Shown here: positions 10,201 to 13,200 of the stretch, in pieces
Position numbering within the stretch: the stretch's first letter is position 1
Layout: each line of letters opens with the position of its first letter
Assembly (NCBI GenBank): GCA_001938485.1
Contig: MQRK01241884.1
Location: forward strand, 1 to 53,120
Origin: Girardia tigrina
Taxonomy: Eukaryota
Length of the DNA: 53,120 nucleotides
Direction: 5' to 3'
Program-made: the position numbers

Positions 10201-13200
10201 TAAACACTAGTGGCACTATATGTCGTTTGAAAAAATCATTTGTTCTGACGATTACGGTTCAACCGCCGAAATTAATTAACTTTGATTGGCTTCAAAATTG
10301 TCCATAAAATAATCATTTCTTTAAGATTTCATTTGAACGTGACCGTTAATCAATCAATTGAGACAATGCAAAACAGATGCAACGGACTATGAAACATGCA
10401 ACCGGCAATAAGACATTAACAATAACTATTTCAACATAAATATTCAATATTTATATCGAACTATAATGAAATTAGACTTTTGAAAATCTATAAACAACTT
10501 TCTATATCGATTTTCACTCATCAACAAATCAAATGTGTTTCTAAAAATAGACTGCTTTAGTTGAAACAAAATATTACGATTTATCTGAAGAATTAACGAT
10601 CAAAGCGTTACAAAATAAATGTGTTCCAAACAAAATCGTCCACAACAATTAAAACTTGATTCAAATTGTGGAAGTGAATCCAGTTCATTGATCGATTCCG
10701 ATGAGGATTATCAAGAAAAATCTAACGGGACGATCAAAATATTGTCGGATCTGACGTTAATTTCGAGTGTGGAGTTAATGAATTTTATCGATAATAAAAA
10801 AGAAACGAATTTGATTATCGATATTCGGAATAATCGGTTTTATCAAATGCAACACATAAAATACGCGATTAATTTCAATTGTTCGACGAGACTGATGTCA
10901 AGAAGATCGAAAATCAAATGGGCGCGGTTCCATTCGAATAAAGTGTTCGATTCCATTGTGATTTATGATGAAAAAGAACTGATTCCCGATCAGGATGTGT
11001 TTCCGATGAAATTTATCAATCAAATTCAATTTAATTGTCCTTGTGTCCAAATTTTGGCAGGTATTATTTTTTGAATTTAATTTTCAAATTTTTGAAAATT
11101 TAAAATTAATAAGCCAATCAAAATTGATTTCTTTTTGTTTAATTTCGAATGTCAGACTTTTATTATCTGAAGTTAATGATTATGTAATCGACGTATTATA
11201 CTTTAGTTGTAGTGAATAATTATTGTTTTAATGAGGAGTTAGTTAAAATTTTCAATTCTCCAAACAATTGATCAGAATTTTTAATTTAAAATTTAACAAA
11301 AGATTAAATAATTATGTTGAACAAAAATATACATCAAGTTTAAAAATTTAAAAATTATTTTAAAAACTGTACAATAATTAAAATAAACAAAAATCATAAA
11401 CAAAGTTTAAAAAAAATTTATAATTAATTCTAATCGATATTTTTTTCAAAAGAAAATATTTAGTAAAAAAAATTTAAATCAAAAATTAAAGGTTTCGATT
11501 TCATTCGAACAAAGTGTTTGATTCAATTGTGATTTATGATGAATAAAAACTGATTCCGGATCAAGATATGTTTCTGATGAAATTCATCACTCAAGTCCAA
11601 TCCAACTGTCCCAATATTCAGATATTAGCCGGTGTTATTTGTACTGTTAAGAGAACTCACATTTGACAGAACATTTATTACATTCACATTTCTTATCATC
11701 TTTATGATGATCAATAGTATTGCTTTCACTTAGATCCATCAATCAATTTTCAATATCTCCCATTATAATCTGAACTATACTTAAGAAGACCACTTTTTTT
11801 AAAAATATTTGATTTAAATTTTATTGGCTGAAATAAAATATTTTTATAGTCATTTTTAAACATTAAATTGATTTTAATTATTTAAAAATTTACAAAAATA
11901 AAATCATTAAAATTATTTAAAAGTTGTAATAAGGAAAATTAAAAATTTGAATATTAAATCTAAATTTAAATAAATTAGTTTCAGATTATAAGAAATTAAA
12001 TATCGATAATCCATCTGGTTAGGAGAAGCACAATCCCAAATCAACATACAACATTTAAACATGCAAAAACTACACAAAAACATCCACACACCAAATATTC
12101 CTCACATGTACTATTTTTCAAATTTTAATTTCGAAAGTCTAAACTATCATTATATGAAGTTATATGAAACAATAGAGATAATTGATGATTATGCAATCAA
12201 TGCGGCATAATTAAGTAGTAGAAAATTATTATTGTTACAATTTTCAATTCACCAAATAATTGATAAAATTTTTAATAGAAAATTTTAACAAAATAAATAA
12301 TTACTTAAAACATGAAAATTACATACCGGTTATATGATTAAAAAAAAATTATTTTTTAAAACCAACAAAAATTCAATAATCATGTAAAACAAAAAAGTGC
12401 ATTAAGGTTAAAATAAGCAAAAATGTATGTTAAAAGGTTTTGATTAATTAAAACTGATTTATTTTTGAAAAGAAAGTATTTATTAAGTCAATTCTTGTAG
12501 TTAATTTTTACAAAAGTAGAAATTTAATTTAAAAAAATTTAAATGGATTTAGATAAAATGATTTAATCGGATTAACGAGTAGAAATTTTTTTAAATTTGT
12601 GTGAAATCATGAGTTCCAATCTTAAATCAAACATTATTGAGGATAATGTTAATGCAACTTACAGTTTTAATTTAGGAGAGTAAATTAATTATTAAATTAT
12701 TAAACATGAAATTATTAAACAATCTTTTATTTTTTTACTACGTTTTTCTTAGCTTGGTTTCTTTTCTGTCTGTCTGTCTGTCTGAAACAAATTTTGCGAT
12801 TGATTTTTCGACCATTTTCAGTCATTTAATTGAGCTGAATTTTTTTATACAGGCTTGCTTCCGATGACAATACAATATTTTAAAACATTTACTTTACGGA
12901 TGTACGGAAAAAATTAATAAATAGAACAAATATTGTGAAAATCAAGTGATAATTAAGTGTAGAAGTATTAAAATTAGGTTTAAAAATTATTTTGAAATAA
13001 AACTTGCTTTTATTAAAATAAAACTTTGTTATTTTGGTTTTANNNNNNNNNNNNNNNNNNNNNNNNNNNNNNNNNNNNNNNNNNNNNNNNNNTTATTTTG
13101 GTTTTATTATCATTTCTGTTATTCGAAATCAATCGAAAGATTTGAATTCCTAAATGATAACTAAAAATAGTTAAATAATATTATTAATAAAAAAAAATTT

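What the first reader, a model, noticed from the sequence alone, without database searches (positions are those of the whole stretch)
10925..12540. Dead tandem duplicate of DUSP exon 1 3' end shows an excess of synonymous change
Seen: 11496-11631 aligns without gaps to 10925-11060 over 45 codons. By my count 14 codons differ only synonymously, 8 change the amino acid and 1 is a nonsense change (AAA>TAA). The GT donor is kept, the following intron is duplicated too, and element A inserted 13 bp after the duplicate's donor. Inference: a copy dead from birth should show more replacement than silent change, so this one seems to have been translated under purifying selection for a time. It could be a former alternative version of the kinase-docking domain's C-terminal half, a relic of a tandem paralogue, or a piece of a divergent allele joined by unequal exchange.
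Basis: partly seen in the sequence, partly recalled or inferred. Interest (0 to 1): 0.65.

Follow-up and report, generated by a model that had tools for sequence, protein, structure and literature searches.

The report
Decayed duplicate of phosphatase exon end
A broken second copy of the last 136 bases of a phosphatase gene's first exon lies in the next intron, and its changes suggest that it coded for protein for a while before it decayed, which is a modest evolutionary curiosity.

Summary
Window 11496-11631 aligns without gaps to 10925-11060 (109 of 136 bases). Of 45 codons, 14 differ only silently, 8 by replacement and 1 by a stop.

The structure is a tandem duplication of about 572 bp across the exon 1/intron 1 boundary of a DUSP10/16-like MAP-kinase phosphatase gene. 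A repeat of about 470 bp splits the second unit.

Half of the path between the copies is the live exon, so a copy dead from birth predicts a pairwise omega near 0.5, not 1. The corrected null still fails:
- Omega is 0.03-0.07, with an upper bound near 0.21. Omega = 0.5 is rejected at p 4.5e-4 to 3e-5.
- Simulated dead-from-birth copies reach 14 silent codons in 0-1.2% of well-sampled replicates.
- One transcript-derived orthologue places 4 of 4 polarisable replacements on the copy.

The copy most likely coded for protein during much of its history and died late. No present-day route to translation is visible, no transcripts could be checked, and there is only one protein outgroup. This is a known kind of relic and of modest interest.

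The parts
10619..11060 (+). Exon 1 of a DUSP10/16-like MAP-kinase phosphatase gene (ATG to phase-1 donor). It encodes the rhodanese-like MAPK-binding domain.
   Evidence: ORF. Pfam Rhodanese PF00581, E 3.9e-5, 24.5 bits against a cut-off of 22.2. 75 of 137 aligned residues are identical to the transcript-derived orthologue P0001. Weak PDB matches to the DUSP16 and DUSP10 MAPK-binding domains, E 0.025-0.54.
10925..11060 (+). Segment A: the parent, which is the live 3' end of exon 1 (45 codons plus 1 base). Homology with the copy may begin at 10906.
11061..11477 (+). Segment B: the first 417 nt of intron 1, the intronic part of duplication unit 1.
   Evidence: Collinear homology with 12107-12545.
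11478..11631 (+). Segment A': the duplicate pseudo-exon. The core is 11496-11631 (45 codons plus 1 base). It is broken by one in-frame stop and by one 1-nt gap near its 5' edge, and it keeps a GT donor.
11632..11640 (+). Start of B', the duplicated intron, before the insertion.
11641..12106 (+). Element A: a non-coding interspersed repeat of about 470 bp inserted into B'. Its left edge is uncertain within 11638-11645.
   Evidence: 79% identity to 28451-28917 on the minus strand. Partial copies lie at 40252-40498, 45136-45227 and 16383-16507. No tRNA-like part was found.
12107..12545 (+). The rest of B', the duplicated intron segment of unit 2.
28451..28917 (-). Second full-length copy of element A, used to date the insertion.
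   Evidence: p-distance 0.216, K 0.24.
33068..33235 (+). Exon 2, holding the end of the rhodanese-like domain, the linker and the start of the catalytic domain.
   Evidence: AG/GT bounds and phase read. 39 of 54 residues are identical to P0001 residues 136-189.
50633..50815 (+). Exon 3, the N-terminal half of the DSPc catalytic domain.
   Evidence: Pfam DSPc PF00782, E 9.7e-10, profile positions 1-68 of 133. 52 of 60 residues are identical to P0001 residues 192-251. Bounds read.

Best explanation
A segment of about 572 bp spanning the end of exon 1 and the start of intron 1 of a DUSP10/16-like phosphatase gene is present twice in tandem. The downstream copy (A') is now a pseudo-exon.

Its differences from the live exon are those of two coding sequences under purifying selection, plus a short final period of neutral decay. 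A' therefore most likely belonged to a translated unit for much of the time since the copies separated. That unit could have been a second version of the first exon, a tandem paralogue whose 5' part was later deleted, or an alternative 3' portion of exon 1.

A' lost that role late. The time of loss roughly matches the insertion of the 470-bp element A a few bases after its donor. After that it picked up one stop, one small indel near its edge and most of its 8 replacements.

Shown: the duplication, the silent excess, and that the replacements lie on the copy's branch. Inferred: the former translation, the time of death, and the lost upstream part.
For: 1. Pairwise codon ML gives omega 0.032 (kappa free) or 0.065 (kappa fixed at 1.5). 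Omega = 0.5 is rejected at p 4.5e-4 and 3e-5, and omega = 0.25 at p 0.025, so the upper bound is about 0.21.

2. Death from birth was simulated with no replacements allowed on the live branch. This is the setting most favourable to that null.
- With the intron-derived GTR spectrum, 0 of 685 and 0 of 752 replicates with 21-25 differing codons reached 14 silent-only codons.
- With HKY kappa 2-14 and two compositions (48 cells of 20,000 replicates), the conditional probability was 0-0.012 in cells with at least 1,000 conditional replicates. The highest value was 0.026, in a cell with only 39. The joint tail was at most 0.002.
- With an ancestor given G/C at every differing third position, the probability was at most 0.004.

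3. In an approximate-likelihood grid of 96 cells, the best fit has a neutral fraction of the copy's branch of 0.05-0.2 (L 0.16-0.18). Fully neutral gives L 0.0003.

4. The silent pattern is specific to the true reading frame: 13:9, against 2:21 and 3:21 in the other frames.

5. Against orthologue P0001, A matches at 20 of 43 aligned columns and A' at 16 of 43. At 4 sites A holds the outgroup state and A' does not. At 0 sites the reverse holds.

6. Third-position GC has not fallen in the copy: 0.378 against 0.356 in the live exon, with the intron at 0.159. This fits a short neutral time.

7. All clocks were computed under one substitution model.
- Positions 1+2: K 0.099.
- Position 3: K 0.454.
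- Intron B against B' by MAFFT: K 0.457.
- The element A pair: K 0.241.
The copy's neutral time (about 0.10) is close to the upper bound on the age of the insertion (about 0.12 per branch).
Against: 1. The simplest origin is a single 572-bp tandem duplication. That yields a copy with no 5' part and no evident way to be translated.
- The AG at 11490-11491 is out of frame with exon 1's phase-1 donor.
- It is in frame only with a GT at 10927-10928, which has a poor donor context. This is phase arithmetic.
- No trace of a second copy of the 5' part of exon 1 is left in the window.

3. The intron clock depends on the aligner. A gap-lenient alignment gives p 0.19 with 25 gap events. On that clock the replacement-site divergence is what a copy dead from birth predicts. 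The silent sites are then too many: P(at least 14 silent codons) is 0.004-0.03 at K 0.25-0.35 even with both copies constrained.

4. Seven of the 8 replacements fall in the last 21 codons, where A and P0001 agree at 14 of 21 sites. The first 24 codons are poorly conserved between species (6 of 22 sites) and carry 1 replacement plus the stop. This is not what function-preserving selection would be expected to give, but the clustering is not significant (my binomial estimate is about 0.06).

5. The absence of indels in the 136 bases carries no weight. With 6 to 25 intron gap events, P(0 indels) is 0.37 to 0.02.

6. Silent changes could not be polarised, because no eukaryotic DNA outgroup was available.
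Confidence: 0.55

Rival explanations
1. The copy was dead from birth. A single 572-bp tandem duplication produced a fragment that was never translated. The silent excess is chance in 45 codons, or it comes from a feature of mutation or silent-site selection in the live exon that my models do not capture.
For: - This is the most parsimonious structure.
- No acceptor is in frame with exon 1's donor.
- On the gap-lenient intron clock (K about 0.23), the 9 replacement or stop codons and the single stop match the null's expectation. At T 0.10 the null gives 10.7-11.6 such codons and 1.0-1.1 stops.
- Replacements lie on the copy's branch, 4:0.
- Positions 1+2 show 7 transitions to 3 transversions. 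This hints that the exon's mutation spectrum is richer in transitions than the intron's 23:45.
Against: - Every null variant run gives at most about 1% in well-sampled cells.
- The LRT against omega 0.5 gives p of 4.5e-4 or less, even with kappa free.
- On the MAFFT intron clock (K 0.46), about twice as many replacement codons are expected as are seen. At T 0.22-0.25 the null gives about 20 against 9 observed, and the joint tail is 0 of 20,000-40,000 replicates.
- The copy's third-position GC has not decayed.
Confidence: 0.28
2. One of the two exon tracts was imported. It was gene-converted from a diverged, functional DUSP paralogue elsewhere in the genome. The silent differences would then pre-date the local duplication, and the local copy itself was never translated.
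For: It would explain both a low omega and, on the gap-lenient alignment, silent divergence above intron divergence.
Against: - No paralogue is known. In 1.84 billion representative proteins, only 3 match exon 1 at E of 0.001 or less, and none is closer than 57% identity.
- The donor would need 36 of 44 identical residues in a domain that is only 55% identical to the nearest orthologue.
- On the MAFFT alignment there is no clock conflict to explain.
Confidence: 0.08
3. The copy is still in use as an alternative exon. The stop would be a sequencing error, a polymorphism, or bypassed by translation from an internal ATG.
For: - Omega is as low as in working duplicated exons.
- The donor is kept in the same phase.
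- An in-frame ATG follows the stop (ORF 11568-11666).
Against: - There is one stop in frame, a gap near the 5' edge, and no acceptor in frame with exon 1's donor.
- The constraint signal is no stronger after the internal ATG. The ratio of silent to other codons is 7:7 there, against 7:2 before it.
- The four replaced residues whose ancestral state could be inferred are ones conserved in the orthologue.
- The only orthologous transcript carries the A-type version.
Confidence: 0.05
4. The duplication is an assembly artefact: two haplotypes or two loci joined by mistake.
For: Assembly gaps (N runs) begin 0.5 kb downstream, at 13043.
Against: - The two units lie on one N-free stretch.
- They differ by 20% in the exon, by 6 to 25 gap events in the intron, and by a 470-bp insertion. 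That is far beyond allelic divergence.
- The end of unit 1 abuts the start of unit 2 in register, as a real tandem duplication does.
Confidence: 0.03

Closest known systems
Tandem exon duplication giving mutually exclusive or substituted exons, including unannotated exon copies found in introns (review PMC9013439, passages read; it cites a 2002 survey reporting tandemly duplicated exons in about 10% of animal genes and more than 2,000 unannotated candidates)
   Same: A homologous copy sits in the adjacent intron. The 3' phase and the GT donor are the same. The flanking intron was copied with it. The substitution pattern between the copies is of coding type.
   Different: Only the 3' 136-154 nt of a 442-nt exon is copied. 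There is no acceptor in frame with the upstream donor. The copy carries a stop. No expression data are available.
Gene fragments and pseudogenes compared with their live parent, where pairwise Ka/Ks is expected to lie between the gene's own value and 1 (general molecular-evolution knowledge, recalled)
   Same: The copy is truncated and disabled, and the replacements are concentrated on the copy's branch.
   Different: Pairwise omega (0.03-0.07, upper bound about 0.21) is well below the roughly 0.5 expected for a copy that was neutral from the start.
MAP-kinase phosphatases of the DUSP10/DUSP16 group (MKP-5/MKP-7). The Drosophila counterpart, puckered, is recalled and was not tested.
   Same: An N-terminal rhodanese-like MAPK-binding domain and a C-terminal DSPc domain. 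The orthologue's catalytic domain best matches DUSP10 structures (E about 1e-37). Exon 1 weakly matches the DUSP16 and DUSP10 binding-domain structures.
   Different: The docking domain is very divergent. Only 3 relatives were found at E of 0.001 or less in 1.84 billion representatives. The catalytic-loop exon is not in the window.

Membership tests
MKP-type dual-specificity phosphatase | N-terminal rhodanese-like (MAPK-binding) domain | tested here: met
   Pfam PF00581, E 3.9e-5, 24.5 bits against a cut-off of 22.2. PDB matches to the DUSP16 binding domain at E 0.025-0.03 and to DUSP10 at E about 0.5. The AlphaFold model was too poor to test the fold (mean pLDDT 41.6).
MKP-type dual-specificity phosphatase | DSPc catalytic domain | tested here: met
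   The exon 3 stretch matches PF00782 positions 1-68 of 133, E 9.7e-10, 38.8 bits against a cut-off of 33.5. Only the first half of the domain lies in the window.
MKP-type dual-specificity phosphatase | Catalytic Cys-X5-Arg loop | not testable with these tools
   The exon that should hold it was not found before the window ends. The orthologue P0001 has the loop (sequence; alignment to DUSP10).
MKP-type dual-specificity phosphatase | Basic kinase-interaction motif in the docking domain | not tested
   A basic cluster lies just upstream of segment A in the exon 1 translation. Calling it the kinase-interaction motif rests on recall only.
Tandemly duplicated, mutually exclusive exons | Two adjacent whole exons of like length and phase | tested here: not met
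   The copy covers only the last 136-154 nt of the 442-nt exon 1. The 3' phase and the donor are shared.
Tandemly duplicated, mutually exclusive exons | Own acceptor in frame with the upstream exon | tested here: inconclusive
   The AG at 11490-11491 needs a phase-2 donor, but exon 1's donor is phase 1. Only a weak GT at 10927-10928 would fit (phase arithmetic). There are no transcript data.
Tandemly duplicated, mutually exclusive exons | Open reading frame in both copies | tested here: not met
   One stop in 45 codons of the copy.
Tandemly duplicated, mutually exclusive exons | Coding-type divergence between the copies | tested here: met
   Omega 0.03-0.07, and 14 silent-only codons among 23 that differ.
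Dead-on-arrival partial duplication (pseudo-exon) | Truncated copy with disabling defects | tested here: met
   The copy lacks the 5' 290-300 nt of the exon. It has one stop and one 1-nt gap near its 5' edge.
Dead-on-arrival partial duplication (pseudo-exon) | Neutral pattern on the copy's branch (pairwise omega about 0.5 or more) | tested here: not met
   The LRT gives p 4.5e-4 to 3e-5. Simulations give at most about 0.012 in well-sampled cells.

The most novel reading that the evidence does not exclude
The copy is the remnant of a lineage-specific switch in which the C-terminal half of the MAPK-docking domain of a DUSP10/16-like phosphatase came in two alternative versions. The switch may still work in other haplotypes or in related species. 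It would have offered a way to change which MAP kinase the phosphatase docks to without touching the catalytic domain.
Probability: 0.07. Interest if true: 0.55.

Novelty: new member of a known kind. Interest (0 to 1): 0.3.

Why it matters
It is a clean small example of two points.

First, comparing a pseudo-exon with its live parent must be tested against omega of about 0.5, not 1. Here the signal survives that correction.

Second, if the former translation is real, a MAP-kinase phosphatase once carried two versions of part of its kinase-docking domain. That would be a plausible handle on substrate choice.

No long-standing question is opened by this finding. The value is local, to the annotation and history of this gene.

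Tried and rejected
- Protein searches for relatives or for an isoform carrying the copy. Exon 1 against longer proteins gave 0 of 230 candidates at E of 0.001 or less. P0001 residues 1-140 gave 1 of 45 candidates, which was itself. The copy's peptide had no candidate sharing three words. The window's own species therefore seems absent from that collection, and these blanks say little.
- AlphaFold2 on exon 1 with a 4-row alignment gave mean pLDDT 41.6 and pTM 0.29. This is unusable, so no fold search was run.
- Indel test. There are no indels in the 136-base core, but intron gap events number 6 (MAFFT) or 25 (lenient aligner). P(0) is therefore 0.37 to 0.02, which is not informative.
- Intron clock against silent clock. 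The apparent conflict on the lenient alignment disappears on the MAFFT alignment (K 0.457 against 0.454), so I draw no conclusion from it.
- Internal-ATG isoform. Not supported, because the constraint is no stronger after the ATG.
- A non-standard genetic code reading the stop as sense. Considered and dropped, because introns of 22 and 17 kb, a metazoan SRP RNA and ordinary stops elsewhere argue for a standard metazoan nuclear code.
- A third tandem unit after 12545. None was found.
- A tRNA-derived origin for element A. No tRNA-like hit.
- Scan for the virus-like stretch named by the operators. I scanned 52 of the 59 open stretches of 70 aa or more, plus the exon 2 stretch, and 14 of these again at E up to 1. 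The 7 not sent were 1538-1825(-), 2042-2464(-), 28365-28649(+), 52624-52863(-), 52779-53012(-), and 10619-11071(+) and 49207-49500(+), which were largely covered. No viral family scored; only Mos1/mariner-type transposase domains did.
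Full report
**What is there.** The window is very AT-rich, with GC 0.16-0.37 per 2 kb. It holds 1,367 N in six runs, none between 10000 and 13042. I did not fill or look up any N run. I do not take the window for human. It has about 25% GC, a metazoan SRP RNA, and a phosphatase gene whose nearest relative is an unnamed invertebrate-like transcript.

**The gene.**
- The ORF 10619-11060 carries a rhodanese-like domain (Pfam E 3.9e-5, above the curated cut-off).
- The stretch 33068-33235 continues the same domain and linker.
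- The stretch 50633-50815 is the first half of a DSPc catalytic domain (Pfam E 9.7e-10).
- Splice bounds and phases were read.

**The orthologue.** An exhaustive profile-free search of 1,835,955,588 representative proteins found 3 relatives of exon 1 at E of 0.001 or less. The best is P0001: 320 aa, from a 1,228-nt contig, source Logan, unnamed. It is a spliced orthologue. Compared exon by exon:
- Exon 1: 75 of 137 residues identical.
- Exon 2: 39 of 54.
- Exon 3: 52 of 60.

Its catalytic domain best matches DUSP10 structures (E about 1e-37). Exon 1 weakly matches the MAPK-binding domains of DUSP16 and DUSP10 (E 0.025-0.54). I left out the step of joining the exons into one query.

- 11496-11631 aligns without gaps to 10925-11060 at 109 of 136 bases.
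- Of 45 codons, 14 differ only silently, 8 by replacement and 1 by a stop. The differences fall 6/4/17 by codon position, with 20 transitions and 7 transversions.
- In the two wrong frames the silent-to-other counts are 2:21 and 3:21, against 13:9 in the true frame over 44 codons.
- Self-BLAST extends the homology to 10906-11069 against 11478-11640, with one gap near the 5' edge. It also finds collinear intron blocks out to 11479 and 12544.
- The end of unit 1 abuts the start of unit 2. The structure is therefore a tandem duplication of about 572 bp across the exon 1/intron 1 boundary.
- Unit 2 is interrupted by a repeat of about 470 bp (element A). A 79%-identical copy lies at 28451-28917 on the minus strand, and there are partial copies elsewhere.
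- The insertion point is 6 to 13 bp after the copy's donor.

Half of the path between the copies is the live exon, where replacements are filtered out. A copy that was neutral from birth therefore predicts a pairwise omega of about 0.5 or a little more, not above 1. I tested against that null in two ways.

*Pairwise codon ML (F3x4 from exon 1).*
- Omega is 0.032 with kappa free and 0.065 with kappa fixed at 1.5.
- Omega = 0.5 is rejected at p 4.5e-4 and 3e-5.
- Omega = 0.2 gives p 0.06 and omega = 0.25 gives p 0.025, so the upper bound is about 0.21.

*Simulation of the null.* The live branch allowed no replacements (most favourable to the null), the copy was fully neutral, and both branches had equal time.
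- With a GTR spectrum estimated from the duplicated intron, silent-only codons averaged about 5.6. They reached 14 in 0 of 685 and 0 of 752 replicates with 21-25 differing codons.
- With HKY kappa 2, 4, 9 and 14 and two compositions, the conditional probability was 0-0.012 in cells with at least 1,000 conditional replicates. The highest value anywhere was 0.026, in a cell with 39 replicates. The joint tail was at most 0.002.
- With an ancestor given G/C at every differing third position, the probability was at most 0.004.

A rough likelihood grid prefers a copy that was neutral for 5-20% of its branch (L 0.16-0.18). Neutral throughout gives L 0.0003.

**Which branch carries the replacements?** Against P0001, A matches at 20 of 43 aligned columns and A' at 16 of 43. 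At four sites A keeps the outgroup residue and A' does not, and the reverse never occurs. The two-sided binomial is 0.125 for 4:0, and 0.06 if the stop is added. The replacements therefore lie on the copy's branch. This fits a late loss of constraint, and it also fits a copy that was always free. Silent changes could not be polarised, because only a protein outgroup exists.

**Clocks.** All values were computed under one substitution model.
- Exon positions 1+2: K 0.099.
- Exon position 3: K 0.454.
- The element A pair: K 0.241.
- The intron pair: K 0.457 on a MAFFT alignment (p 0.318, 6 gap events).

A gap-lenient aligner gives the intron p 0.19 with 25 gap events.
- On the MAFFT clock, the intron and the silent sites agree, and replacement sites have moved at well under half the rate expected for one neutral branch.
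- On the lenient clock, replacement sites and the single stop fit death from birth. At T 0.10 the null gives about 11 replacement codons and 1.0-1.1 stops. The silent sites are then in excess.

Either way, positions 1+2 and position 3 cannot both be reconciled with a copy that was neutral from birth. The copy's estimated neutral time (about 0.10) is close to the upper bound on the age of the element A insertion (about 0.12 per branch). Loss of use at about the time of that insertion, right beside the donor, is a coherent but unproven story.

**What speaks against former translation.**
- The present structure offers no clear route. Spliced after exon 1's phase-1 donor, the AG at 11490-11491 puts the copy out of frame. 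It is in frame only with a GT at 10927-10928 inside exon 1, whose context is poor.
- Otherwise one must assume that the duplication was once larger (a whole first exon or a tandem paralogue) and that its 5' part was later deleted. No trace of that part remains in the window.
- Seven of the 8 replacements lie in the last 21 codons, the part best conserved between species (14 of 21 sites against 6 of 22 in the first part).
- The sample is 45 codons, and it was chosen because it looked unusual.

**Verdict.** The statistical signature of past coding constraint is real and survives the proper null. The mechanism and the origin remain open. I put about 0.55 on 'formerly translated, died late' and about 0.28 on 'dead from birth with an unexplained silent excess'. 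Small weights go to an imported exon tract, to present-day use, and to an assembly artefact.

The kind of object is known: a decaying tandem copy of exon sequence in an intron. Review PMC9013439 (passages read) describes such copies. The other papers in the listing were seen only as titles and abstract openings.

**What stayed unchecked.**
- Any eukaryotic genome, read set or transcriptome of this species.
- The closed collections metagenome contigs and viral contigs.
- Supplementary files of papers, which were not consulted.
- The operators' 'virus-like stretch'. I could not recognise it. Pfam scans of open stretches of 70 aa or more found only Mos1/mariner-type transposase domains.

Noticed in passing
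window 31909-32195 (+): A full-length metazoan signal-recognition-particle RNA (7SL) gene lies inside intron 1 of the phosphatase gene, about 0.9 kb upstream of exon 2. Rfam RF00017 scores 159.6 bits against a gathering score of 70, over model positions 1-299 of 299.
   Followed up: no
window 1397-2515 (+) and 48890-49959 (-): Remnants of Mos1/mariner-type DNA transposons. The hits are the HTH_48 and Transposase_1/DDE_3 domains. In each remnant the domains lie in separate open stretches, so the transposase frame is interrupted at least once.
   Followed up: partly
window about 52003-52988 (+): Four open stretches in more than one frame look by eye like a Tc1/mariner-type transposase. No Pfam family scored at E of 0.01 or less. 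The label rests on recall only.
   Followed up: partly
window 13217-13500: An inverted repeat has 46-nt arms that are 98% complementary (13217-13262 and 13455-13500), around a longer 118-nt pair at 80%. It encloses a 50-N run and lies 0.7 kb downstream of the duplication. It could be a foldback element or an assembly feature.
   Followed up: no
window 4001-6443 (+): The GC-richest block of the window (0.37) holds open stretches of 119, 133, 168 and 89 codons. None has a Pfam match below E 0.003. Its nature is unknown.
   Followed up: partly
window 33405-33707 (+) and 38006-38146 (+): Two open stretches in intron 2 share a similar peptide segment. They are probably two copies of another interspersed repeat.
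   Followed up: no
window 11242-11301 and 12234-12293: This is the best-kept block of the duplicated intron, at 80% identity over 60 nt. That is as similar as the exon itself. Part of it also resembles 52062-52133 on the minus strand.
   Followed up: no
whole window: I recognised no stretch as virus-like. See the Pfam scans.
   Followed up: partly
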